This document shows, in pieces, positions 1 to 60,570 of a stretch of 64,000 nt of DNA (the stretch's first letter is position 1; each line of letters begins with the position of its first letter). The notes under the pieces are model-generated. The model searched no databases. It was not told the origin of the DNA and saw only the letters and a list, made by a program, of their open reading frames with translations. Position numbers and translations under genes: made by a program. The DNA comes from Tubulanus polymorphus (taxonomy: Eukaryota; Animalia; Nemertea), in contig NC_134026.1 in assembly GCF_964204645.1 (NCBI RefSeq), positions 19,874,150 to 19,938,149 of the forward strand. The letters run 5' to 3'.

Positions 1-439
1 TCGTTTGTATTAACCGTGAAATTAGTTAGTTTGCGAAGTTAGTTTGACGATGGACGAATTGACGATCAACAAAACCGTCAAACTCAAAGGAAATAATCCG
101 CCGCAGTATATCGAGTCCGGTATCACGTTTCTCGCGTTTGTCATAGCGAGTCGTGGGCTCGGTCCTCGATGCGATATGACCCGAAGATCCGCTATTGAAG
201 ATACGTATATCATCTACCGCGTTCTGGCAGATCAAAATGTATAATCTATTGCCCCGGTCGTGGGGTGATACGACCTAGTAAACTTTTTCGCTCGAAATGT
301 GCTCTAATAAAGTTATGCATTTTACCGTGTGATAGATTCGTCAAAATTAGCCATTCGTCCCTTTTGGTCAATCGTCGCTTCGTCAATCTGTTTTGACGAA
401 TTGACGATTGAAGAATATTGACAAAACCGTCAAAATTGT

Positions 440-1503
440 ATGGAAGCCCTGAAACGACATTACGAATTACGAGTTACGTTTTACAAATTACATTTTACGT
501 TTTACGAATTACGAGTTACGTTTTACAAATTACGAGTTAGGTTAACGATTTACCATATAAGCTCCCTGCATTGCGTATGTCGCGCGAGGTCAAGGTCTTA
601 TACAATTACGTTTTACGAATTACGTTTTACGACTTACGTTCTACGAATTACGTTTTACGAATTATGTTTTACGAATTTCGTTTTACGAATTACGTTTAAC
701 GACTTACGTTTTCTATTGACTTATTGGCTATTGCTTCAAAAGTTTTTCGGAAAAACACGGGCTTTGCAATGAAGTCGAATCATGACGAAGAATGAATCTG
801 ACTGAATTTATTTTGCATTTTGAAATATATACATGTATATCCGTGAAATTGAGGGAGTTTATCGTACGCATTTTTATTACAAGTAATAATGAGACCAAGG
901 AAGTCAAAAAGTGACATGATAATTTCAAAATGATCAAAAGTATAGAGATTCAGCCTGCATACGCCCGGATTCATTAGATAATAAATTACAAACACTAACA
1001 CTGTCCTGTTTGGCAAGGAAGGGCACGATGATTAAGACGATACAAAACTGGAAATTATTCGGGCTTCATGGAGATAAAAAGAAATTGGACTCCATATCGG
1101 TGCAGATACAATTCTTCAATTGTAACAAATGATCATAACAAGTCTTAGCTTTTAATTATGAAAATATATATTTTTATTTGAAAGAAAAGCGTTTGTCATC
1201 CATCATCGTTATTAGTTGAAGTATTCGGCAAAAAATTACAATCGATTTCACCACAGTGCTGCCTTCTGCTTGCTACCCAAAGTTTAATATTCACGACACG
1301 GAGAGTGCACCACAACCTTGACCTCTTGTGAGAAATTGAACCGAAATGTAGTGGTAAATCGTTGCCCAAAATAACTCGTAAGACGTAATTCGTAAAACGT
1401 AATTCGTAAAACGTAATTCGTAAAACGTAAAACGTATTTCGTAAAACGTAATTCGTAAAACGTAAAACGTAATTCGTTATGTCGTTTCGTTCAGGGCTTC
1501 CAT
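440..1503. mobile_element. Foldback-type non-autonomous DNA transposon with tandem-repeat-filled TIRs
   Basis: Termini ATGGAAGCCCTGAA / TTCAGGGCTTCCAT are inverted; both arms carry TTACG(A/T)(A/T) heptamer arrays in opposite orientation; exact 8-bp flanking duplication AAAATTGT at 432-439 and 1504-1511. Confidence 0.85.
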
Positions 1504-1836
1504 AAAATTGTCTCAAGAAGTCAAACTCAATATCCACATCGCACTAATAATAACCGCGGTACAATTATCGAGTCATGAATCAAGTTTCTTACCTCGGTCA
1601 GAGCCAGCCAAAATCCATCTATGGTCCAATGAAATTTGACAAAACACGCATCACAAATAGTTTTTAAAAAAGAGAATAAATAATAATACAGGACAAAATA
1701 CTGTATAGCCTAACAAAATGGCGGCTAGCAATTGTAAAATGATTTATCATCTGGTCCCGTTTCGGCCACTCACAAATGTTTGGCTTGAATTTTCTAATCG
1801 GCATTACGAATATATTGTTAAATGTTCTTTTTGTAG

Positions 1837-2168
1837 TCGTGGTCGAAGAAATTGCTTGCTAGAATCAAGGAAACCGATGCGGAAAGAGCTGAATTTTTAA
1901 AGAAACATTTACCAGATTTTACTGAGAAACTTGTTGATGATTATGACGCATTAAGCTTCTATGCCAGTCAGTAAAAAACACCGTCGACATTTCTGTCGCA
2001 ATTTCATTTAACCAATACTCTATGTTTTGTCATTTCAATCTTACAGCTGAGGACGATGAATACGATTTGGAAGGTGGTATCTATTTGCTCAGATATCGCG
2101 ACCCAGTCAATGAAAAAGAGCCATATCTGACTGTTTTGAAAGATGCCGGTTCTTTCGTTCAGATATAA
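1837..2168 (+). CDS. TCTP/TPT1-like paralogue A, last two exons (1837-1966, 2047-2168); 5' exons not found, presumably upstream of the window
   Basis: GT-AG splicing gives SWSKKLLARIKETDAERAEFLKKHLPDFTEKLVDDYDALSFYATEDDEYDLEGGIYLLRYRDPVNEKEPYLTVLKDAGSFVQI*. Exon sizes (130, 122 nt) and phases equal those of the 6967-8958 gene, and the peptide resembles the TCTP C-terminal half. Confidence 0.85.
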
Positions 2169-2417
2169 ATTTCGTGTCCTTCCCATCACCAAAAATGATG
2201 ATTTTACTATAATAATCCAAAAATAAAGTCTATATTGTACTCGGAGACAGCGGTGTTGAACGTGTTCTTTCATTGTGGATCCATTTCGATACCCGCGGCG
2301 AAGTATGCGCCGACGATTCGGACTCGAGAGAATATACATATATACTTGTGGGCTGCACTGCCACTTATGAGGACCAGGTCCGTAAGAGAAGAAGAGAGTA
2401 AACCGGGAGAACACGTC

Positions 2418-3222
2418 TTTACTGTATCAGCATCATAAGACAACTAACTTTATTTCCTATACTGTAAACTACACTAAAAAGAGTACATGTGGTCAAGTAA
2501 TTACATAGATCCATCATCTTGACAGCTGCGGTTCAAAGACTACTTCAAAGAATACTTCGGCTGTTGCCGACACTGCCGGGGGGCCAAGGTGTGGTTTAGC
2601 ATGTCAAGTCTGGTAGTAAAGTAAACAAAGTACGTAAGTAAATCTAGCAAATACGAGGAAAATTAAAAAATTAAAAGTAATTAAAACGTTATACATGAAT
2701 TCGAAGAAGGCAAATTTAAGTACAGTGAGTATAATGATAAGCGATCGTCTAATTTGAATTTCTAACAGGCATTGCGTTGTGTTTGTAACATATTTGATAT
2801 AATTATGAATTCTAAAATCATATTAGTTTAATGTAATCATCATTTAAACATTAATCTACATTTCCTACATTCATTGATAAACATAGTTCATAGAAATGTT
2901 ATTTATGAAAGCATATTGAAGAAATTGATAAGCATTTAAATACATGTAGCGGTATATATAATCATACGTAATTGAGAATTTCAGCAAATTAAGGTTATAG
3001 GCGTAAACAGTAAACATTTTAACGAGTCATTAATTACAGTCGGGGTGGCGCGTGATTTTCGTTCGTGTTTACTGTATCAGCATCATAAGACAACTAAATT
3101 TATTTCCTATAATGTAAACTACACTAAAAAGAGTACATGTGGTCAAGTAATTACATAGATCCATCATCTTGACAGCTGCGGTTCAAAGACTACTTCAAAG
3201 AATACTTCGGCTGTTGCCGACA
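2418..3222 (+). repeat. ~155-bp near-identical direct duplication (2418-2572 and 3068-3222)
   Basis: TTTACTGTATCAGCATCATAAGAC...CTGTTGCCGACA repeated 650 bp apart with about two substitutions. Confidence 0.9.
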
Positions 3223-4320
3223 ACTACTGTATACTCTTTACCAATAAGAAGAGGGCTCCAGGAAAAAATCTCAACCTCAGAATGCATCTTGTATACATTT
3301 TCTGTTTTACTCCGATGAGGGGCTTCGTTCTTCGGGCGCTCGCGCAAGCACACACCTAACTTTGGAACGTTTATCGTGTTAAAATGCCAACCCTTTCAGT
3401 GGCATAGTCACTAGGAGTGACGATGAAATCCGATAGATCCTGGCAGTCACCTGCCAGGTGACACGTTACTTACTAACCTACTTACTTTCACTAGATGACA
3501 ACCAGTCGAATCTGGCTGCTCAAACTTAATGTCTTACAGTCGTTTAAATGCTCTAGTACTGATAAAAAGTGCTGGCTATGTTTTTTATTAGCAAACTAGG
3601 TCATGTAAACAAATACGTGACCTAAATTTGACATAAGGAATGAAAAGATAGATATGTGCATGTCGGATACGAATTCGTGTTGCTCGGATTGAAAATGATC
3701 GTCGCTCACGTGGTGGAAGTCGATTTACGAAGATCTCCCGATAGGAATTACATGAAAAAGTTACGAGTCGCACCAGATCCTCCGCTCGAATTGTACATTT
3801 TAGCTGCTTTTAGAATGAATTTTGAGAGTTTTGATTTTTAGATGATTATTAATCAATAGATGCGTGTTAACGAGATGAGCCCCATTTTCAAATGGGTATA
3901 GGTCTTGCGCGTGACGTCATAGTTTGTTTGCTGGCCATTTCGAGGGTCTGTCATGTAAATCACATGTATATACATGTATATATGTTTATTCGACCCATGT
4001 GGCGTAGTCACTTTGAAAAAGCACAGGGCTGCAAGACCTTTGTAATATCTATTTCGACGAACGTTTTTGTGAACGTTTTCCAAGGAGAATACAAGGAGAA
4101 TTTTTTCATCTGGAAAAAATTGGTTATGATTTGTTTCTGGCAAAACATTTTGTGCATGAATTTAAAGTCAAGGCATGGGAGTTATTTTTTTTATAATCAT
4201 TTCTCAACTGTTCACACTCTTGCACTGGGATTGACCCGTTCCTGTTCAAACCATGTGTTCAATTCACTTCAATTCAATTTCAATATTTTTCATAAGAAAG
4301 CATGTTATAAGAAAGAAACA

Positions 4321-4430
4321 GGACCCAGTTCGACAGTCGTAAGTTAGAGTTAACTCTGAGTTTAAGTTAGTTCATTTTCAATGTTTTAACCCAGAGTCAA
4401 ATCTTAACTCGGAACTGTGGACATGGGCCC
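4321..4430. mobile_element. Degenerate PIF/Harbinger-type MITE
   Basis: GGACCCAGTT...CATGGGCCC imperfect termini and GAGTTAACTC internal palindromes; resembles elements at 57570, 57702 and 62541. Confidence 0.5.
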
Positions 4431-4519
4431 AGAACAAAAATAAAATTGAGAAGGCTTTCTTATGAGGGCCTAGCCACGGCCAAAAGGCTGCTATAGCAAG
4501 CACCGCTCGTTCGGTGTAG

Positions 4520-5453
4520 GCTCCATGTTGTCCTATTACAGCAACGGACAGCCACGTTCTCTATCACTTTGGGAAATGTTTTTGGCGATATGTTCTGCAT
4601 CTCCCTGCGGATATTGTTCTTCAGTTGGTCAAGTGTTCGAGGCTTCGGGCTCCCATAGATTCTCTCTTTCAGATGACCCCACTGGAAGAAGTCTGTGGGC
4701 GCAATGTCGTGTGGATAACCGGGCCACTCCACATCCTCATAGAGATTACTCGATCTGGAAAATGTTCACGGAGAAAATGTATTGATTCTCCGGTTATGCG
4801 AGGTGGAGCCATATCCTGATACGAATAATGTTATTTCTCCTTCGGGCCTGAGTACGCTGACAGAAATAGATTCTCGTATCACATTCGGTTGTTTACTTGG
4901 TTGATGGTAACTATGTGTCCTTGGTCATCCTCACAGAAATGCGGGCTAGCCACATTAGCCGCGATCACACGAGCATTTTTGGCCCGTACCAAATTTAGCT
5001 CGGAAAACTGTTCACACGGGTGCCAAATGGGCCCGAGCCTGTTTGGCCCGACAAAAATTGTTGGACAAGGCCAAGCAAAATTTTAGCACCAGACAAATGA
5101 TTGCGTTTGAATAGCAACTGGCACCGGAAATGATCCACTTCGCTTTGTTTGAGCATTTTTTAGTATCGAGTGAATGGTTTACGTGTGAACGCGCTCTCTA
5201 ATTAGGCACGGGCCAAAGTTGGCCCGAGCCTGATCCGTGCCAATTTGGCCCGGGCCAGATCGTCACCGTGTGATCGCGGCTATTGTCGCAGTTAAAAAAT
5301 CATTATAGAAACAAAATCTCGCATGCAGGGTTCCACGGTTGCGGTCCTTATTTGTCCTTCTTTTGGAAGAAGTTTGGACAAACTTCATCTTTGTGCTTTA
5401 TGTGCTTTATGCACATATTGTTTTGTCAGTCAAAGCATTTTTGGGACACCCTG
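4520..5453 (-). mobile_element. Decayed Tc1/mariner transposon with transposase remnant
   Basis: Minus frame EWPGYPHDIAPTDFFQWGHLKERIYGSPKPRTLDQLKNNIRREM resembles the WPxxSPDLxPxDFFLWGxLK Tc1/mariner motif; terminus TA-CAGGGTGTCCCAAAA at 5439-5455; interrupted by a MITE. Confidence 0.8.
4957..5281. mobile_element. MITE (PIF/Harbinger-like) inserted in the mariner remnant
   Basis: 15-bp perfect TIR AGCCGCGATCACACG / CGTGTGATCGCGGCT, 3-bp ATT duplication on both sides, internal GGCCCG subrepeats. Confidence 0.8.
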
Positions 5454-6336
5454 TATATGGATTAATTGATTTTATTCGAAAACATTAGAGCGATAGCCTG
5501 TGATCTAACATAAGATCCGTTTAGTTGAACTGTTTTATCAATTTGATAAAATGTGAAGAGATCTGATGCATTTTTTTTTATAAAACCTGTGAAATATCGT
5601 AAAAATGCGAAAAATTCAAGAAAACTGTAAAAAAATGTTTTGATAGCTTCTTATGCCAAACACGACGGAGCTCAGAATTTATTTCAGCTCAGAAATTCTA
5701 TCTTAATCTTATTAGATCGGGATGAGTAAACGCTCATATTATTGTATCTTTCAAAAAAAGTAAATTATGGTGAAAATTCAAGTGTTAATCAATTTAACCT
5801 CTGAGACAGTAATGAACTTGATCTATATTTCATTTCATTTCATTATACTGTACCGTACAAGCATTATATAATCTATTTACATTTATATTCAGGATAACAA
5901 ACTTTATATTGAGCCCGCTTATGGATAATTTATACGCCCAGTCGAACCGGAACTTTATAATACATGTACAATTTTGCGAATATTGATTATGAAATTACCT
6001 GTTGTGATACGCGTGCATGTATGTATTTATAAAACTTGTATGTTGTATTTTGGAGATATGATTTTAGAAAAAATAAAATTGTTCTTAAAATGATGGAGAT
6101 ATTTTTGAATTTAGAAAAGTCTGAAATCTTAACACCATTCGAACGTAATTATGGAAGGAACGCGGAGATGGTGGAGGCTGTGCCATTATTCAGCAGAAAT
6201 TGTCAAATTACGATTCAATAGAAATGCTACCAGAGACTTTTGAAGCATCGACAAAATCGGACATTATCAAGCCAAAATGGGGCAAGGAATATATATGTTC
6301 ACTACTATAGATCGAAGAAAATACGATTGCGGTGAT

Positions 6337-6374
6337 CCAGGGAAGTGTGATGAGATCTCATCACACTTCCCTGG
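6337..6374. repeat. Perfect 38-bp palindrome
   Basis: CCAGGGAAGTGTGATGAGATCTCATCACACTTCCCTGG is its own reverse complement. Confidence 0.9.
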
Positions 6375-6899
6375 CTGATCTACCATTAGTTACCGAGTGA
6401 CACTGGGCGATGATATATGATATGTTGAATTATATCATATATCATATTATTCAGCCCCTCTCAACCCCTGAAATGAACGACATAACAATATTGCGACCTA
6501 GACAACGATGATTACCACCCGTTTACTTTAGCACTGAAAATATGAATGATAAAAGGATTATAACACAGCCGGTTTTGAGCCGATTAATTTCTGCAATGCT
6601 TTTATACGACCCAGAGCAGCGTCATTGGGGGGACGCAATCAACCATAATGGATTCCCATTGAAATTATGTGACTACGTACAAACCCGCTCTCCCGTCCGA
6701 CTTCTTATAATCTTAGGGATTATATTCTTACGAGACTATAGCAGAAATGTATCTACAGTGTCAAAGTGGTATTTGCTAATATAGAAAATTGTTTCTCTTC
6801 GCTCCCCTCATCCAAAATAGGTGACGCCGCCTCAACGGCCGTGCACTTTTTAATAAGACCAAGGCTATAAAACCTGTATGAACAGATTACATACGTTTG

Positions 6900-6905
6900 T
6901 ATAAA
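6900..6905 (+). promoter_or_regulatory. Candidate TATA box of TCTP-like B
   Basis: TATAAA about 65 bp upstream of ATG 6967; a second TATAAAA at 6866. Confidence 0.4.
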
Positions 6906-6966
6906 GCCTGTGTGATTTGGACGAGACACAACTATACAATTCGAAAGGACACCAACGGACTTGAAA

Positions 6967-8958
6967 ATGAAAGTATTTCAAGATCATTTTACAGGTAATT
7001 TTCATAACCATTGATGAAATTCTCTGTTCGTGTTGTGACGATCTGAGAAAATCTAAGAAAGATGAAAGAGTATTTCTGAAGATAGCTATTAAGATATAGG
7101 CCTGGTCGAAACGCTTATCACGACTTGTACAAGTCTGGCATATTTTTTTACGTGCCCTATATTCATTTTGCCAACAAAGATAATTGGTGCATTTTAGTGG
7201 GAGTGCGCCTAATATTGCTTTTTTGGACATCATGTGACAAGTCCTTCAAAATTGGCATTTGGGTCAGCCCCTGAAATCATAAACTCAAGGAGACTTTACT
7301 TCTTTCTTAATGTGGAATATATTATATGTAAAGATAATTTGCATATTTGGATTGAATTAAAACAACAAGATAATCCTGTTACTTAAAGATGCCGGCCTTG
7401 AAGATTTGAGCATCGATTTCGAAAGATTCACTATTTGGTAATCTTTTTTCATCCGTTTTGGTATGTACTTGATTTGAGGCCAAATGTTAATCCCAAATAT
7501 GCGAGTTGTGAAATTGCTCCTTTTGGTATATTTTCAATAATTTTCTGCGTGAGTTCTCCTATAGGAACCGACATGTGTACCTAACAAAAAGTTCCACTGT
7601 AAATAGAAGAACTGTAAGTTAAGCTCCACGCGGGTCTCTCTGGCTTTTATGACTTATTCATTAATTCGATAATATGGAAGAACATACAAGCTACTAATTT
7701 CGGTATAACAGCCAATCAAATTGGTCCCTGGAGGTAAAGCCAGAGTACGCGGTCTGAGCCTGGTCAATCAGCAGATTAAGTCAGTGAAATATAAGGAATT
7801 GTTCACGGTTAGCAGTCACCTTTTTCAGGAGAAGACGTATTTAGCGATGCATATAAATACACGCTCGTTGATGACCTGTACTATACAGTAGATGGAAAGG
7901 TGAGTTTAGAAATCTAAAAAACAAAATTCATCCAAGTTCAAAATCTAAACACTTTAATGGAGAACCGGCTGAACTACTGCCACTCGCGACCGGTGGTATG
8001 CCGGTTCCCCATTGACACGACGAAAATTTACAAGGATTGTTCGTGTTTTTCAGTGGGTATCGTCGAAAACTGCAGTAAGCGAATCACTGATTGGTGGTAA
8101 TAGGTCTGCAGAAAATGATGAACAAGAGAAGGCTGATGTAGAATGGGAAGTAGACTTTATTGGTAGTAGCACTTTAAGAGAGATAACCACTGTTGCTTCC
8201 GTTACAGACTTCAAACAACAATGGAGCGTATGTATTTCAATGTTTGCAACTTGGCTGATTCGAGCTATCGGTGGGCGTCGTTGCGGGCCGTCTTCGGGCG
8301 GTGCTTTCGGGGTTACGAGCCCCTGTCGAGCGGCGCTGAAAAGACTTCGAACCCAGAAGCCGAAACGCGAAATTATTCGCAGACGACTTAGATCTCGGTC
8401 GTGTCGCACTCGGCAGAGCAGCTACCACACTGCGAACCGTTATGTCCTTTGACCGATGGATTTGTCCCGGGGGCGGCCCGTCCAGGGAGAATGTCTGGGG
8501 TAATAGGTCGTTCATTTCCGAGGCAGAAAGATTGCCATTATCTGGTCCCGAATCAGCCACTCAAATGTTTGGTCTCTATTTTCTAATCGGCAGCGAATAT
8601 AGTGCTAAATTTCCTTGAATATTGTAGACGTTCTCGAAGAAACTGCTTGCGAGAATCAAGGAAACCGATGCGCACAGGGTTGAACATTTCAAGAATGGTT
8701 TAAACGATTTAACTAAAAACCTTATTGCTGATTTCGACGCATCAAAATTCTATGCCAGTTAGTAAAAACGCTGTCTATATTACAGTCGCATTTTCATTCA
8801 ACCAATGCTCTATGTTTCGTCATTTTAATCTTGCAGCTAAAGATGATGAATTCGATTTGGAAGGCGGTATTTATGTGCTCAGATTTCTCGACCTCGTCAA
8901 TAAAGAACAGCCATATTTGACTGTGTTGAAAGCGGCGGGTTCTTTTGTGACGTTTTGA
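6967..8958 (+). CDS. Divergent translationally controlled tumour protein (TCTP/TPT1)-like paralogue B, 174 aa; exons 6967-6994, 7829-7899, 8054-8227, 8628-8757, 8837-8958
   Basis: All introns GT-AG and in phase (525 nt total). MKVFQDHFTGEDVFSDAYKYTLVDDLYYTVDGK resembles the TCTP N-terminus, SLIGGNRSAE resembles the TCTP1 signature, and the 28-nt first coding exon matches TPT1. Confidence 0.92.
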
Positions 8959-10131
8959 GTTTTGGTTGCCGTCTATAGCAACTTGTTGTTTTGTGTAGAA
9001 CTGTATTCGTCAGTCGTGTTTGTAAAGTAATTAGCCATGGCCTCACTGTCTTCGGCATGTTGTTGCTCAAATTCTCTGCTCACTGTCTGTCAGCTTTGTT
9101 TTTCATACCAAGGTTTTTTTTGTTATTATGCGGGAATTTAAATAAGGTATAGTCGATATAGAATGGGACACACTTGTTTCGGTCGGAAGCCGGGAAAGGG
9201 ATTTTATCTAAATTGATCGTTGACGACTGTGGATTTATTTGCCGAGCTAGTTCCCAAGCTCAGTGAAAATTCTAATTACTTTACCACCACGCAAATCTAA
9301 TCCAAGCAAGCCTCAGAATGACGACGCATTATGATGTATAATCCGATAATAAAGTCTGTTGTAGAGACATGATGATAATAATGTTAACGATAGTAATGGC
9401 AGATGCTTTTAAGCTTTCGCTCGCTTTTCGATGGACGCATGCTCAAAGCCCGGTTAATGCGTATGGAAAAAGCTGATTGCTTCATGTGTCCAAAAGAAAA
9501 TATGAAATGCGGAACAGATTATAACACCGCCGGTTTCTAGCCGATTAACTTCCACAATGCTTACGACCCAGGGTGGTGTCAGTGGAGGGGCCGTACCAAC
9601 CGTTATAGATTCCAATTTCACTGTACTCCACACTTAATGTTTTTCATTATTCATGCCATCAAGTTGATGTAAATATTGTTATAAAGTTGATGAAATAAAC
9701 TTCTATGAAAAGCCACTTTATAGAAATCAGTCGATATCGAATGTACGTAAGATATGAATCGTGCATATTTTACTTTCTTAAACCCTTTTTTCTCAAGGGG
9801 CCTGAACGTCGTAGTGATTGTACAGCCTAAGGCTCTGCTGAGGTCGCTATCATCAATCGTCGTAAAAGCAACCGGACAACAATCGAAAATTTGGCACAAA
9901 AGTTTTGTGCCAAATTTTCGATACTTGAAGGTGTCTTTCCGATACTTGAAGGTGTCCTGAGTTCACATAAGTATGTTCGGTGCCAAGCTCTAAAAACATT
10001 CATTTTCCTGTTCACTCGAGTGAATTGCAGACCATCACGTTTATTGTTGGGGCGCTAATTTCACATAAAATTGGAGAATTCGTTCGCATTAGAACATCAA
10101 TTTATAACGTATACATGTACTTAATTTTAGC

Positions 10132-20649: not shown

Positions 20650-22827
20650 ATGATGGTAAGTCATTGATTTATTATTTCTTCATTTAAATACCTTTAGTCT
20701 GATCACCAGACGATGTTATGGATCGAACAACAGTTAGATACATAAGATGCCCATGCCTTGCCTACTTAGTAGTTAATAACCCATTCAGTATGGATCAGGG
20801 GGGTGATAAACCTCAGCTTATCAATTCAAAAGCGCGAAAGAAACTCTTCCAATTTAAGTGTCTCATTGTCACAATTCATATTTAGAAATAGTCCACGCAT
20901 TCCCTATAGGTAAATGTTGGCCTTTGAGTTCGCGCAATTATCATCATATTGCGATCCATTGCCCACAAGTGCAGCATTGTTTTCAAGCGTTCAGGTTGTC
21001 TACGAACTGTACCATTGACTTTTTCATCCATGGTTGAATCAAATATAGAACACTGCGTGCTACTGGATTTTCACTTCGATGTAAATAGGTATTCTTAAGC
21101 CAAATTAATAAATCAATTCATTAAATGAACACTCAATATCTTGATGCAATCTATTTACAGCCTGCACCAATACCGACATTTTTTTGCCCTTCCAAAATTT
21201 GATCACAGGACTTCACACATTTTGTTCATAATAATTGAAAATTGACTTAGCAATGGACTACAAATGCAGAACATTCAACAAACTTGACAACTTGAATGAT
21301 CTTTTCTAACTCGCTTTTCCAGGTTTCAAAAGACGAAATAGGCGCTTTTTTCAACCGGTTTAAGGTCTAGAGGGTGTAGGGATAGGGATTTTACTCTCTA
21401 CTTCCAATAAGCAATTTGCCTAACATGAACATATGAATGGTGCGACAGAAAACGATGATGATGAAATTGAAATTATGAAATAATGCATGGAAAACGTAAT
21501 TGCAAATTTTCAATATTGTCTATGTAGACATAGAAGTGACCTTAATGGATGTGACAAGTTGTTAAAAATCAACAACAAAGATAATTGGTGTATTTCAAAG
21601 CAGGAGTGCACCTTTTTGGAAATGAAAGAACCCTAAACAGATATAAGTTCTTCAAAATTAGCCCCTCAGTGCAGGAGTACGCCTAATATTGCCTTTTTCG
21701 GATATTGAGGTGCCTTTTTAGGCTTTGACAGGTCCTTCAAAATTAGCCCCCGGATCCGCCAACCTGTAATCAAAGTGTATCTCGTTATGTTTTTACATTT
21801 GCAGGATGCGTACAAGGCCATGAAAATATTCGTCATATCATGCTACATATTTTTCGGCGTCGCCGGAAATCTATTGATCATAATCGCCGTCGCTCGCAAG
21901 AAAAAACTACAAGTAACAACAAGCGTTTTCATCGTCAACGTCGCCATTTCCGACATGGTAGTCGCCGCCGTCGTGATGCCGACGATTCTGGTAAATCTGC
22001 TCACCGACGGACGCATGGTCGGCTACGACGAATGCGTGTTTTTCGCGTTCGTCCTGCTCACGTCGTGCGGCGTATCGTTGATCAGTCTTTCGTTGATCGC
22101 GTTCAACCGTTACGTCAACGTCTGCCATCACGCGTACTACAAACGCGTGTTCGAAAACCGTTTCGTCGTCGTAATGGTCGCCGCCGTTTGGAGTTTTTCG
22201 TTCTCGATAGTCGCCATCGGTAGTTTCACGCCGCTCGCGAAATTCAGCTACGACCCGCGGCTGTACACGTGCACGTACATCAACCGAGAATCGCGCGTGT
22301 ACACGTTATTGCTGATGACGGTCGGCATCGTTTTACCCTGCGTGCTGACGTCGTTCGGCTACATCAAAATCTTCCGGAAAATCCGCGACTCTCAGAACAA
22401 CATGATGGCGCACGCGTCCGCGACGCATAACAATAAGGAAAAGAAAGCCATATTCGCGATGTTTTCGGCGTTCGCGGCGTTCGCTATTTGTTGGTTTCCG
22501 TACGGTACGATTGCGATCGTCGACGCGTTCACGAAAGGAATCTCCGACGAGGCTCATTTGATCGTCGCGTGGCTCGCGTTCGGCAACTGTTCGTTGAACT
22601 GGCTCATCTACGGCGGGTTGAACTCGAATTTTCGACAAGGATACAAGAAAATCTTCGTTACCTGCCGCAGTCGCAACAAAAGAGCGATCGCCGATTCGAC
22701 GACGACACAGACGAACGGGAATCTACATCGAGCGAAACGGGATACTCGGACCTCCGTCGTAAATCTACCGCAGAGACAGATGATCAGCGCTAGTTCAACT
22801 GTTCCCACTTTATCGGAAACATCATAA
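20650..22827 (+). CDS. Rhodopsin-class GPCR, melatonin-receptor-like; probable micro-exon ATGATG 20650-20655 plus main exon 21805-22827
   Basis: Seven hydrophobic segments, GNxxxI, NVAISD, AFNRYVNVCH (NRY as in melatonin receptors), CWFPY, NCSLNWLIYG; acceptor TTTGCAG at 21804 and donor ATG|GTAAGT at 20655. Confidence 0.88.
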
Positions 22828-24589: not shown

Positions 24590-46083
<21,494 letters not shown>

Positions 46084-46191
46084 CGTGGCATCAGCTCAGA
46101 CCATCTGAAAATTACAATCACTATTAGGCCACGTGTCAATGCACTATTAGGCCACGTGTCAATGCACGTCAATTTCGGGGAGTCGGAGTAA

Positions 46192-47451
46192 ACTAGGGGT
46201 CCAGGGACACCATGCCCACTTGGGAAGTGGTTCCAAATGCTCAACAATCTAACAATTTCAATATTCAACGCCCCCTGGTGACCATATACAGAATCCAATG
46301 ACCTTGAAACTCACCACAATCATAGAACATGTCAGCAGCTACGATTTTGTAATTGATTGTGATAACAAAATATGCCTCGTTACCACTATAATATGGAAAT
46401 ACTAAGTTATTCTACTATTCAATGCCCCCCTGGTGACCATATTCAAAACCCAATGACCTTGAAACTCACCACAATCATAGAACATGTCACGAACTATAAC
46501 TTTGTAATTGATCATGGTAACAAAATATGCCTAGGTACAAATATAATAAGGAAATAATAAGTTATTCTACTATTCAATGCCCCCTGGTGACCATATAGAA
46601 TAACTAATGGCCTTAAAACTTGCCACAATCATGGATGATATCATGAGCTACAACTTTGCAATTGAATGTGGTTACAAAATATGCATTGATACGAATATAA
46701 TATAGAAATACTAAGATATTGCATTATTCAACGCCCCCTGGTGGCCATATACAAAAACCAATGACCTTGAAACTCACCACAATCATAGAACACGTTATGA
46801 GCTACACATTTCTAAATGATTGTGGTAACAAAATACGCTTAGGTATCAATATAATGTGGAAAAACTTTTTCCCACTTACGAACGAGTACTGCTGACACCA
46901 AAATGGCCGCCAATTGCGTCATAATTGGCCGATGAAAAATACCTGTCTCAGGTATAAAACATCCCTTTCCAAAGAATACCCATCACAAATTGCAATGAGA
47001 AATGATAAAACAGTAGGAAGCTACAGGACTCAGAATTTGGGCCAAAATTAACATTTTTGGGCACTAAAAAGGTCATAGGACGGCCATCTTGAGTCCGATC
47101 GACCCAATTTTTGTTATGCTGATGGGCCCTGGGGGAATTCACATATATCCGAAAGATCAAAGCGTCTTCAAAATTTCCCTCAAAAAGTTCAAAAATGTGT
47201 AAAAAGTGCTGATTTTGGCGAACAACAATGGCTGCCAGTCGGCCATCTTGAGCTGAAGATGTGTCTAGGGTAGATACATGTGTAACCCAAATATCAAGAC
47301 ATTACCTTGAAGTGTCTTCAAAACTTCCCAAAATAACTGGATTCCGTCTACGGATGGACGGACGCTACGACGGACGGACGAACGGACGAACGGACGGACG
47401 AAAAGTGAACGCAATAGCCCGCTGGGACTAAAGTCCCAAGTGTGCTAAAAA
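46192..47451 (-). mobile_element. Helentron-associated non-autonomous element (HINE/DINE-like), copy 1
   Basis: Subterminal IR GCCCACTTGGG / CCCAAGTG(G/T)GC, terminal hairpin, (GGAC)n microsatellite, four ~150-bp internal tandem units, CTAGT end in T-rich context. Confidence 0.85.
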
Positions 47452-48217: not shown

Positions 48218-48386
48218 CACTTCCTATGGAATTTGCTATCACGTATCGTGAATTTTTACCCTAAGATATTCCATAAATATAACCATAATCATACCAAAAA
48301 TAAGATAACATAGGTTTTAGAGAAAAAATAGCTATATGTCAGCGAAATTCAAAGACATGCATCATAACGTACTTAATACGTTTCTA

Positions 48387-49639
48387 ACTAGGGGTCCAGG
48401 GACACCATGCCCACTTGGGAAGTGGTTTCAAATGCTCAACAATCTAACAATTTCAATATTCAATGCCCTCTGGTGACCATATACAAAAACCATGACCTTG
48501 AAACTCAATACAATCATAAAACATGTCAGCAGCTACGATTTTGTAATTGATTGTGATAACAAAATATGCCTCGTTACTAATTTAAAATGGAAATACTAAG
48601 TAAATCTACTATTCAACGCCCCCTGGTGACCATATTCAAAACCCAATAACCTTGTAACTCACCATATTCATAGAACATGTCATGAACTACAACTTTGCAA
48701 TTGATCATGGTAACAAAATATGCCTAGGTACCAATCTAATAAGGAAATACCAGGTTATTCTACTATTCAACGCCCCCTGGTGACCATATAAAATAACTAA
48801 TTTCCTTAAAACTCACCACAATCATAGATGATGTCATGAGCTACAACTTTGCAATTGATTGCGGTAACAAAATATGTATTGGTACAAATATAATATAGAA
48901 ATACTAAGATATTGTATTATTCAACGCCCCCTGGTGGCCATATACAAAAAACAATGAACTTGAAACTTACCCCAATCATAGAACACGTTATACGCTACAA
49001 CTTTCTAATTCATTGTTGTAACAAAATATGCTTAGGTAACAATATAATGTCGAAAAACTTTTTCCCACCTACGAATGAGTACTAATGACACCAAGATGGC
49101 CGCCAATTGCGTCATAATTGGCGGATCAAAAATACCTATCTCAGGTATAAAACATCCCTTTACAAAGAATACCCATCACAAATTGCAATGAGAAATGGCA
49201 AACCCGTAGGAAGCTACAGGACCTAGAATTCTGGCCAAAATTGACATTTTTGGGCACTAAAAAGGTCATAGGACGGCCATCTTGAGTCAGATGGACCCAA
49301 TTTTTCTTATGCTGATGGGCCCTTGGTAGATTCAAATATATTCGAAAGATCAAGGTAATTGATCATATCGTCTTCAAAATTTCCCTCGTAAACTTCGAAA
49401 ATGTGTAAAAAGTGCTGATTTTGGCGAACAACAATGGCTGCCAGTCGGCCATCTTGAATCTGATAGGGCCAGTTTTTGGGCTGAAGATGTGTCTAGGGTA
49501 GATACATGTATAAACCAAATATCAAGACATTACCTTGAAGCGTCTTCAAAACTTCCCAAAATAACTGGATTCCGTCTACGGAAGGACGAAAAGTGAACGC
49601 AATAGCCCGCTGGGACTAAAGTCCCAAGTGGGCTAAAAA
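48387..49639 (-). mobile_element. Helentron-associated non-autonomous element, copy 2 (partial copies ~54170-54415 and ~61112-61348)
   Basis: Colinear with and highly similar to 46192-47451, including termini and tandem units. Confidence 0.85.
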
Positions 49640-59277: not shown

Positions 59278-60570
59278 CACAGGGACTTGTCACGACTGAT
59301 AATGGATGAGACCAATGATGGGGGTACCAGTATCCCTGCAACTGTATAATAAAATAACAAGGGTGGCAACAAATTTTCAATCTGACAATGACTTCTCCAC
59401 TTCAATCGACTGTAATTCCAAAAATTCTCAACCGATTCACATGAAATAAGCTTTAATACAACCTAGAAGACTTTCTGCTTCGAACGAGCCTACAACCACC
59501 ACTCTCCGACAATTATCTCACAACGAAATCACCTTTTTTGACGAGAGATAGCTCAAAATGGAGGTGTACCGATTCTATGGTGGACAGCAAAATGGTCGTT
59601 TTTTTCAATTCAAACGATGATTTCTATGTGAGATCTTAGAGAAAACCCCAACAAACCATACATTTTTTAAAACTACGCGGTCATACCTGTACGCTTATCT
59701 CATTTATTTGTATAATCCACGCGATGGGTGAGCTCACAAGCTCAAAATCGAAAATGAGGACGAACACGGCGTTCAACTTGTCAGCAACTGGGCGGCCATT
59801 AATCACGTGATATCGTAGTAACGGGCTAAATATTTCACGCGCATTGATTGGCTTAGAGATTTCGAAAAACATTACAAAATTTATTAAAAGTTCTGTTAAT
59901 TAATAAAATATCCGTATTATGAAAATATAGTGCAACATTCGTCTGAGGGGTGGTATTATTAGCAAACATTTCCTTTTTTCAAGTCTACAGACGTAGACTT
60001 GTCGCGGTTTTATTAACATAGCCCGAACCTGCACGTCACGTGATTAATGGCCGCCAGCGCGATAGTGCGAGGTGACTTTTTCGTATATTTGTTCGATTTT
60101 GAGCTTGCGAGCTCACCCATCGCGTGGATTATACAAATAAATGAGATAAGCGTACGGGTATGACCGCGTAGTTTTAAAAAATGTATGGTTTGTTGGGGTT
60201 ATCTCTAAGATTTCACATAGAAATCATCGTTTGAAGTGAAAAATACGACCATTTTGCTGTCCACCATAGAATCGGTACACCTCCAATTTGAGCTATCTCT
60301 CGTCAAAAAACGGTGATTTCGTTGTGAGATAATGGTCCTAGAGTGGTGGTTAAAGGCTCGTTGGAAGCAGAAAGTCTTCTAGGTTGTATTAAAGCTTATT
60401 TCATGTGAATCGGTTGAGAATTTTTGGAATTACAGTCGATTGAAGTGGAGAAGTCATTGTCAGATTGAAAATTTGTTGCCACCCTTGTTTTTTATATTAT
60501 ACAGGGATAGTGGACCTGGTCATTGATATTGGTTTTATTCATTCACTATCAATTGTGACAAGTCCCTGTG
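59278..60570. mobile_element. 1.3-kb foldback element (P/Galileo-like) with ~530-bp arms
   Basis: 59278-59810 is inverted at 60036-60570; termini CACAGGGACTTGTCAC / GTGACAAGTCCCTGTG; exact 8-bp TSD AATTCGTC at 59270-59277 and 60571-60578. Confidence 0.92.

What the first reader, a model, noticed from the sequence alone, without database searches (positions are those of the whole stretch)
1837..8958. Tandem, rapidly diverging TCTP paralogues whose proteins differ more than their introns
Seen: two TCTP-like genes with identical last-exon sizes, absent from the ORF track as genes. By hand count the shared 83 aa differ at about 29 positions (~65% identity), while the 80-nt last intron is ~82% identical and the end of intron 3 still aligns. 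Known: TCTP is usually single-copy and strongly conserved, and is reported as a histamine-releasing factor in spider venom and parasite secretions. Inference: a lineage-specific TCTP expansion under relaxed or positive selection, possibly recruited as a toxin, mucus or immune effector. Changes cluster in the predicted second helix.
Basis: partly seen in the sequence, partly recalled or inferred. Interest (0 to 1): 0.8.

Follow-up and report, generated by a model that had tools for sequence, protein, structure and literature searches.

The report
Hydra-type TCTP pair in ribbon worm
A ribbon worm carries an intact, spliced gene for an unusual form of the growth-control protein TCTP next to a partly visible tandem copy; the two likely drifted apart under loosened constraint rather than being selected as toxins, and their closest named relatives are the TCTPs of Hydra-like animals, which likely points to an old second branch of this family.

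Summary
The pair is real, but the headline is a unit artefact. Gene B (6967-8958, five exons) is the Tubulanus polymorphus TCTP homolog XP_074643142, spliced as predicted in two runs from two studies, with a predicted TCTP fold. Copy A shows only exons 4-5 in the window. The 29/83 amino-acid differences are confirmed, but in nucleotides the exons (78.3%) and the intron (82.5%) do not differ significantly (p 0.34). dN/dS is about 0.5-0.6; the helix region reaches 0.94, not above 1. That is relaxed constraint, not shown positive selection. Only two copies are seen at 80% likeness or more, and nothing found supports a toxin role. The stronger result lies elsewhere: both copies join, with 100/99 support, a divergent TCTP group whose only named members are hydrozoan (Hydractinia, Hydra). 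They share an acidic loop that replaces the family's Gly-Glu motif, while three TCTPs of two other ribbon worms keep Gly-Glu. An old hidden paralogue is the likeliest origin; long-branch pull (AU p 0.13) and transfer from a hydrozoan are not excluded. One more genomic exon-2 piece likely carries a 22-codon deletion and may be copy A's 5' half.

The parts
6967..6994 (+). Gene B coding exon 1 (28 nt, ATG start)
   Evidence: matches P0001; its letters stand before exon 2 in contigs of X4 and X5 (loose ends)
7829..7899 (+). Gene B exon 2 (71 nt)
   Evidence: GT..AG joint to exon 3 in X4 and X5
8054..8227 (+). Gene B exon 3 (174 nt), holds the GGNxSAE loop motif and the disordered loop
8628..8757 (+). 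Gene B exon 4 (130 nt), helical hairpin
   Evidence: joint 8227-8628 in X4
8837..8958 (+). Gene B exon 5, coding part to TGA; holds the acidic loop that replaces Gly-Glu
   Evidence: joint 8757-8837 in X4
8959..9714 (+). Likely 3' UTR of B (end inferred from the length of the X4 contig, if unspliced); poly(A)-type hexamer at 9694
   Evidence: (1290-nt record, letter 566 at 8990)
1837..1966 (+). Copy A exon 4 (130 nt), open frame, intact splice sites
1967..2046 (+). Copy A intron 4 (80 nt), 82.5% like B's 79-nt intron 8758-8836
2047..2168 (+). Copy A exon 5, coding part to TAA; AATAAA at 2222
1746..1836 (+). 3' end of A's intron 3, the upstream limit of likeness to B (8537-8627); not a known RNA family
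434..1509 (.). Inverted 14-nt minisatellite arrays (434-712 against 1372-1509), a fold-back-like repeat upstream of A exon 4, likely inside an enlarged intron 3
   Evidence: high depth
8356..8480 (.). High-copy repeat inside B intron 3
   Evidence: contigs of depth about 4000 against 28

Best explanation
Gene B is an intact, spliced TCTP-family gene of Tubulanus polymorphus and copy A is its tandem duplicate; both likely belong to an old second TCTP branch that hydrozoans also carry, and they likely diverged under relaxed constraint, with B predicted to act inside the cell as a TCTP-type binding protein rather than as a toxin. Shown: exon structure, splicing, family match, rates. Predicted: the TCTP fold (beta core, helical hairpin, disordered loop 40-59). 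Inferred step 1: an intron-bearing TCTP gene (exon 1 of 9 codons plus a 71-nt exon 2, as in the coral gene) gave rise to a branch in which an acidic loop replaced Gly-Glu before the last strands; hydrozoans kept that branch as their TCTP, and this worm kept it most likely beside a standard copy. Inferred step 2: a genomic tandem duplication (dS about 0.4, introns carried along) made A and B; with a spare copy, the exposed second helix changed at about the neutral rate (dN/dS 0.94) while the rest stayed constrained (0.30). Inferred step 3: repeats enlarged A's intron 3, and A's 5' half likely lost 22 codons (the strand and the GGNxSAE motif before the loop), so A is probably decaying or loop-shortened, while B is the working copy. 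The likely partners are those of cytosolic TCTPs (elongation factor 1B, microtubules, calcium; from the literature, untested here), probably with changed affinity because B has lost several otherwise conserved residues.
For: B = P0001 = XP_074643142.1; all of introns 2-4 spliced GT..AG in one X4 contig and intron 2 in X5, two studies, none of these joints in X1. Pfam TCTP 98 bits against cut-off 24.3; model pLDDT 86, TM 0.83 to human TCTP. Tree of 70 chosen rows: pair + 20 group-2 rows, 100/99; still 100/98 after dropping residues 131-174, so not due to the motif; 130-row mixture tree also joins them, SH-aLRT 92. Acidic-loop pattern in 22 of 28 group-2 proteins, 0 of 97 others, and in A and B. 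Named members: Hydractinia; Hydra TCTP 1 carries the same loop, read by eye in the supplement of PMC5793182. Three TCTPs of Carinoma and Amphiporus keep Gly-Glu. Coral gene has the same exon 1 and 71-bp exon 2 (PMC5793182). Rates: NG dN 0.224, dS 0.381, ratio 0.59 (bootstrap 0.31-1.16); ML 0.49, 0.2 rejected (LRT 6.3), 1 borderline (LRT 3.6). A's 249 nt hold no stop and no indel (neutral chance 0.17-0.35 and about 0.08) and match group-2 outgroups at least as well as B. Extra exon-2 piece in X1 runs on in frame like B exon 3 from E53, 20 of 30 letters by hand count, shuffle P 0.003-0.019. No cysteine, no hydrophobic leader, in-frame stop upstream of ATG.
Against: AU test does not reject placing the pair with a bilaterian-type group (p 0.134, lnL 42.7 lower), and the pair sits on a long stem. 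Group 2 was gathered by searching with B, the loop pattern was written after seeing the alignment, and rows for the 70-row tree were chosen by me (long branches left out). A and B lack the longer, mostly Cys-bearing loop that group 2 has before the last strand (Cys in 21 of 28). Only 1 of 20 looked-up clusters had a name, so the range of group 2 is unknown; if all are hydrozoan, the nested position fits transfer better than old paralogy. A standard TPT1 in this genome was not found or tested. The deleted exon-2 piece is not linked to A, rests on 30 letters, and has a weaker rival alignment (a 6-nt insertion with a lost donor). 83 codons give little power for selection tests. Function is untested.
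Confidence: 0.55

Rival explanations
1. The pair is a fast-evolving nemertean offshoot of the ordinary bilaterian TPT1 (or B is this worm's only TCTP), and its likeness to hydrozoan TCTPs is long-branch pull plus convergence.
For: AU p 0.134 for pair + bilaterian-type rows; long stem; C-terminal strand is of the standard short type; nemertean and cnidarian TCTPs are divergent in general (E 1e-19 to 1e-27 to Swiss-Prot TCTPs in PMC9415933; 18-51% identity among cnidarians in PMC5793182); the Amphiporus TCTP shares N-terminal features with B.
Against: Grouping holds with and without the motif columns; the loop includes an insertion absent from most other TCTPs and is matched residue by residue; 0 of 97 other proteins carry it; other nemertean TCTPs keep Gly-Glu.
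Confidence: 0.22
2. The ancestor of A and B came by horizontal transfer from a hydrozoan into the Tubulanus lineage and was then duplicated.
For: All named group-2 members are hydrozoan; the pair nests inside group 2 in the 70-row trees (21-row set 98/93); coral TCTP (identical by eye to P0010) is outside the group.
Against: B has the intron after the 71-nt exon 2 that the coral gene has and neither Hydra gene has (PMC5793182); it lacks the group's Cys-bearing loop; a sister position is not rejected (AU p 0.30) and is what the mixture tree shows; most group members are unnamed.
Confidence: 0.12
3. One reading: a young expansion under positive selection, recruited as a secreted toxin, mucus or immune effector (histamine-releasing factor).
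For: dN is close to intron divergence (38 of 194 against 27 of 166, p 0.49) although half the protein is constrained, which leaves room for a few selected sites; helix window P 0.095 on the intron-only yardstick; TCTPs leave cells without a signal peptide (recalled); TCTP is listed among putative nemertean toxins by homology (PMC9415933).
Against: No region with dN/dS above 1 in the ML fit; two copies only; no cysteine for the disulphide dimer that mammalian HRF activity needs (PMC6957494, PMC5966295 abstracts); that activity works through IgE, which the worm's invertebrate prey and fish predators lack (recalled); the three TCTP rows in the toxin tables of PMC9415933 belong to Carinoma and Amphiporus, none to Tubulanus.
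Confidence: 0.08

Closest known systems
TCTP / TPT1 / HRF family (Pfam PF00838; human 2HR9, 5O9L)
   Same: Pfam match over 1-167, predicted fold TM 0.83, GGNxSAE loop motif, acidic pI 4.7, exon 1 and exon 2 sizes as in the coral gene
   Different: About 26% identity in the structural alignment; Gly-Glu before the last strands replaced by an acidic loop; no C-terminal Cys; Glu12 equivalent is Asp, second conserved Glu is Lys in B (Glu in A); most invertebrates have one copy (PMC7202613)
Hydrozoan TCTPs (Hydra vulgaris TCTP 1, Q94587, and TCTP 2; Hydractinia XP_057300839)
   Same: Acidic loop, GNK/RS loop variant, one tree group; Hydra also has two divergent copies
   Different: Only 33-42% identity; A and B lack the longer Cys-bearing loop before the last strand; different intron set from the Hydra genes
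Nemertean TCTPs listed as putative toxins (Carinoma hamanako two, Amphiporus lactifloreus one; PMC9415933)
   Same: Divergent TCTPs in ribbon worms, two copies in another palaeonemertean
   Different: All three keep Gly-Glu (read by eye); listed by homology to Tox-Prot only
Venom TCTP of Loxosceles intermedia and mammalian HRF
   Same: Same family and fold
   Different: No evidence of secretion here; no Cys for a disulphide dimer; no mast-cell target in the worm's likely prey (recalled)
Other TCTP paralogue pairs (Trypanosoma brucei TCTP1/2; Drosophila virilis, D. mojavensis, D. grimshawi and Branchiostoma with two copies)
   Same: Two copies in one genome (PMC7407922; PMC7202613 supplement)
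   Different: The trypanosome pair differs mainly in 3' UTRs; here the proteins differ by a third and the pair belongs to a divergent branch

Membership tests
TCTP (PF00838), gene B | Pfam score above the curated cut-off over the domain | tested here: met
   98 bits against 24.3, residues 1-167
TCTP (PF00838), gene B | Beta core + helical hairpin + flexible loop fold | tested here: met
   predicted model pLDDT 86.4; Foldseek TM 0.83 to 2HR9, the 22 matches at E <= 0.001 that are listed are all TCTPs
TCTP (PF00838), gene B | TCTP1 loop motif (I/L-G-G/A-N-x-S-A-E; pattern recalled) | tested here: met
   residues 46-53
TCTP (PF00838), gene B | Gly-Glu of the TCTP2 signature (pattern recalled) | tested here: not met
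   Thr-Lys in B, Thr-Glu in A, where 73 and 59 of 97 other proteins have Gly and Glu; Hydra TCTP 1 also departs, so this lowers subtype, not family, membership
TCTP (PF00838), gene B | Binds eEF1B (most conserved interaction, PMC7407922) | not testable with these tools
   primary paper not held; no partner sequence at hand
TCTP, copy A as a complete gene | Exons 1-3 present and in frame | tested here: inconclusive
   not in window 1-1836; no genome; no such protein among 1078 candidates; one unlinked exon-2 piece with a likely deletion
Hydrozoan-type TCTP (group 2, defined here) | One supported side of a branch with group 2 | tested here: met
   100/99 and 100/98; alternative not rejected, AU p 0.134
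Hydrozoan-type TCTP (group 2, defined here) | Acidic loop in place of Gly-Glu | tested here: met
   A and B match; 22 of 28 group-2, 0 of 97 others
Hydrozoan-type TCTP (group 2, defined here) | Longer loop with Cys before the last strand pair | tested here: not met
   Pro160 in A and B as in 74 of 97 others; Cys in 21 of 28 group-2
HRF-type / venom TCTP | C-terminal Cys for the disulphide dimer (PMC6957494, PMC5966295) | tested here: not met
   0 Cys in B; none in A's 83 residues
HRF-type / venom TCTP | Presence in secretion or gland-biased expression | not testable with these tools
   only contigs held, which give no level or tissue
Positively selected duplicates | dN/dS significantly above 1 overall or in a region | tested here: not met
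   0.49 overall, 0.94 in the helix region; simulations

The most novel reading that the evidence does not exclude
Animals have a second, unrecognised TCTP subfamily, older than the cnidarian-bilaterian split and marked by an acidic loop in place of the Gly-Glu signature. Hydrozoans use it as their TCTP, model bilaterians lost it, and a ribbon worm kept it, still expresses it and duplicated it into a natural loop-shortened variant (or took it from a hydrozoan by gene transfer).
Probability: 0.45. Interest if true: 0.6.

Novelty: new variant of a known kind. Interest (0 to 1): 0.4.

Why it matters
TCTP is treated as a single-copy, conserved housekeeping gene in invertebrates and is often listed as a venom component by homology alone. 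If the grouping holds, the odd place of Hydra TCTP in published trees (read as possible gene transfer in PMC7202613) would be hidden paralogy, and B would be a natural variant for testing what the Gly-Glu motif does. The pair also shows how amino-acid against intron identity can mimic positive selection. If the grouping fails, this is an ordinary relaxed tandem duplicate.

Tried and rejected
No genome is held, so no genome-wide tBLASTn, no sequence upstream of the window and no search for a standard TPT1. Word-based protein searches found only P0001 in this species (1 of 3 candidates, 2 of 1078, 8 of 2182); they cannot see a distant TPT1, and the collection may be incomplete. No RNA holder was listed as such. 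Contig depth was not used as expression level. Intron likeness as a hosted small RNA: 4 Rfam matches up to E 5 in 1-10000, none at gathering score and none in these introns; consensus fold weak, 0 compensatory pairs: rejected. Gene conversion: no patchiness over 415 columns (longest identical run 21, p 0.57): not supported. Faster rate of B than A: A matched the outgroup more often in 16 of 20 group-2 outgroups, p under 0.05 in 4, not independent: suggestive only. Metagenome contigs for a dN/dS baseline: none. ESM Atlas only confirmed TCTP. Earlier findings of the scan: nothing. Papers: ten searches found none on this gene or on a nemertean-hydrozoan TCTP group; subscription journals are not covered, and supplement files 13-23 of PMC7202613 and the cut tail of the PMC9415933 archive were not searched.
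Full report
What is there. The window holds one complete TCTP gene (B: exons 6967-6994, 7829-7899, 8054-8227, 8628-8757, 8837-8958; 174 aa) and, 6.8 kb upstream on the same strand, exons 4 and 5 of a second copy (A: 1837-1966, 2047-2168). B's product is identical to P0001, named by its sources as a TCTP homolog of Tubulanus polymorphus, XP_074643142.1, on a 31.9-Mb contig; the species is a palaeonemertean ribbon worm. One 1290-nt contig of run X4 joins exons 2-5 at GT..AG borders and begins with exon 1 letters; a 224-nt contig of X5, from another study, joins exons 1-3; run X1 covers the introns and shows none of these joints. I infer that X4 and X5 are RNA runs; they are not on record as such. 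The predicted structure is a TCTP fold with helices 83-104 and 106-125 and a disordered loop 40-59.

29 of 83 residues differ and intron 4 is 82.5% alike, as stated. But the coding nucleotides are 78.3% alike, not significantly below the intron (p 0.34) or both intron pieces (p 0.21). Nei-Gojobori gives dN 0.224, dS 0.381, ratio 0.59, bootstrap 0.31-1.16. A pairwise codon model gives 0.49; 0.1 and 0.2 are rejected (LRT 19.6, 6.3) and 1 is borderline (3.6). Codons 15-40, chosen after seeing the data, fit 0.94 against 0.30 for the rest, and 0.94 is not different from 1. In neutral simulations 26-31 differences are expected by yardsticks that include the introns and 43.5 by synonymous sites alone (P of 29 or fewer 0.04); the densest 26-codon window has P 0.095-0.82. 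Synonymous sites differ more than the introns (p 0.03-0.05), so the short, signal-rich and best-aligned intron pieces probably understate the neutral rate. The result is relaxed constraint; a few selected sites cannot be excluded with 83 codons.

How many copies, and the state of A. Of 8 records of X1 laid on B's exons 2-5 at 80% likeness, besides B's own two contigs and four repeat contigs there is one with A's exon 4 and one with an exon 2 (62 of 70 letters). Copies below 80% cannot be seen. The extra exon-2 record has an intron acceptor before it and, after codon 30, runs on in frame with letters like B exon 3 from Glu53 (20 of 30 by hand count; shuffles of the same make-up reach this with P 0.003 in exon 3 and 0.019 over the gene). 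That would be a 220-nt loss taking out intron 2 and 22 codons, including one strand and the GGNxSAE motif. It is not linked to A, but one extra exon 2 and one extra exon 4 are most simply one gene. Against a long-dead A: its 249 nt have no stop or indel and keep splice sites (neutral chances 0.17-0.35 and about 0.08), and at several conserved sites A keeps the common residue where B has changed (E107, K114, E136, D167 in B numbering). No A protein is in the collection. Likeness to B stops about 90 nt into intron 3, next to repeats.

Where the pair comes from. An exhaustive search with B gave 239 hits at E <= 0.001, the best 150 listed; after B itself the best are 33-42% identical. I built trees from rows of 150-235 aa (129 of 166 proteins held, plus A) and from 70 rows chosen to drop long branches. 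A and B are sisters on a long stem (0.63; tips 0.33 and 0.12) and join a divergent group, here group 2, at 100/99; the join stays at 100/98 when residues 131-174 are removed. Group 2 and the pair share an acidic loop where other TCTPs have Gly-Glu (22 of 28 against 0 of 97; see the pairwise match). One of 20 looked-up clusters had a name: Hydractinia symbiolongicarpus. In the supplement of PMC5793182, Hydra TCTP 1 has the same loop and resembles P0055, the visible start of Hydra TCTP 2 looks alike, and the Acropora protein equals P0010, outside the group (read by eye). Three TCTPs from Carinoma and Amphiporus keep Gly-Glu (PMC9415933 supplement, by eye). Against: the AU test does not reject the pair inside a bilaterian-type group (p 0.134) or outside group 2 proper (p 0.30); the label 'bilaterian-type' is my reading of unnamed sequences; A and B lack group 2's Cys-bearing loop. 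The coral gene has a 9-codon first exon and a 71-bp second exon like B, whereas the Hydra genes lack that second intron (PMC5793182), which favours descent over transfer from a Hydra-like gene.

How it likely works. B has no hydrophobic leader, no cysteine, pI 4.7 and an in-frame stop upstream of its ATG. Mammalian histamine-releasing activity needs a disulphide dimer and acts through IgE (abstracts of PMC6957494 and PMC5966295). The most conserved TCTP interaction is with eEF1B (PMC7407922 passages). I therefore read B as a cytosolic TCTP-type binding protein with altered surfaces, most likely a second copy beside a standard TPT1; this is inference, untested. The toxin reading rests only on homology lists (PMC9415933), whose three TCTP rows are not from Tubulanus.

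What is known. Most invertebrates have one TCTP gene, some two; Hydra TCTPs fell among protozoan ones in one tree and were read as possible transfer (PMC7202613 passages and supplement rows). Cnidarian TCTPs are only 18-51% alike (PMC5793182 section 3.2), so 'strongly conserved' does not hold everywhere. My ten searches found no paper on this gene or on a nemertean-hydrozoan group. Papers seen: PMC9415933 (passages, supplement part 1 and rows), PMC7202613 (passages, supplement rows), PMC5793182 (abstract, passages, sections 3.2 and 3.3, supplement parts 1 and 4 and a search), PMC6957494 and PMC5966295 (abstracts), PMC7407922, PMC2481426, PMC5010892, PMC4638339, PMC13513372 (passages). PROSITE-type motif names and the lack of IgE outside mammals are recalled.

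Verdict. Observation partly confirmed; interpretation partly supported. A real tandem TCTP pair under relaxed constraint, no sign of positive selection or toxin use, and a likely link to a hydrozoan-type TCTP branch that deserves a named-taxon tree. New variant of a known kind; interest 0.4.

Noticed in passing
window 6536-6660 and 9496-9617: A 125-nt stretch, 75% alike, lies both upstream of gene B and in its likely 3' UTR; may be a repeat or a trace of the tandem duplication.
   Followed up: no
window 2414-2572 and 3064-3222: 159-nt direct repeat, 98% alike, 650 nt apart, just downstream of copy A.
   Followed up: no
window 434-712 and 1372-1509: Inverted arrays of a 14-nt unit, like the ends of a fold-back or MITE-type element; many copies in the genome by depth.
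   Followed up: partly
window 4313-4436 and 4950-5285: Very high-copy palindromic repeats (depth in the tens of thousands in X1) between A and B; the frame at 4460-4765 minus reads like a decayed Tc1/mariner-type transposase end (recalled likeness; no Pfam match).
   Followed up: partly
window 8356-8480: High-copy repeat inside B intron 3, also present in the spliced-transcript runs X4 and X5; no Rfam match.
   Followed up: partly
window 21709-22827: Single-frame rhodopsin-family GPCR, 372 codons, Pfam 7tm_1 E 1e-42.
   Followed up: partly
window 46191-47451 and 48386-49639: Two copies, 87% alike, of a 1.3-kb element holding four 154-nt tandem units.
   Followed up: no
window 32511-33965: 484-codon open frame with a leader-like start and one hydrophobic stretch, no Pfam match.
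   Followed up: partly
window 59278-59752 and 60092-60570: 475-nt inverted repeat, 92% alike.
   Followed up: no
PMC9415933 supplement: Carinoma hamanako, another palaeonemertean, has two divergent Gly-Glu-type TCTPs, so TCTP duplication may recur in this class.
   Followed up: partly
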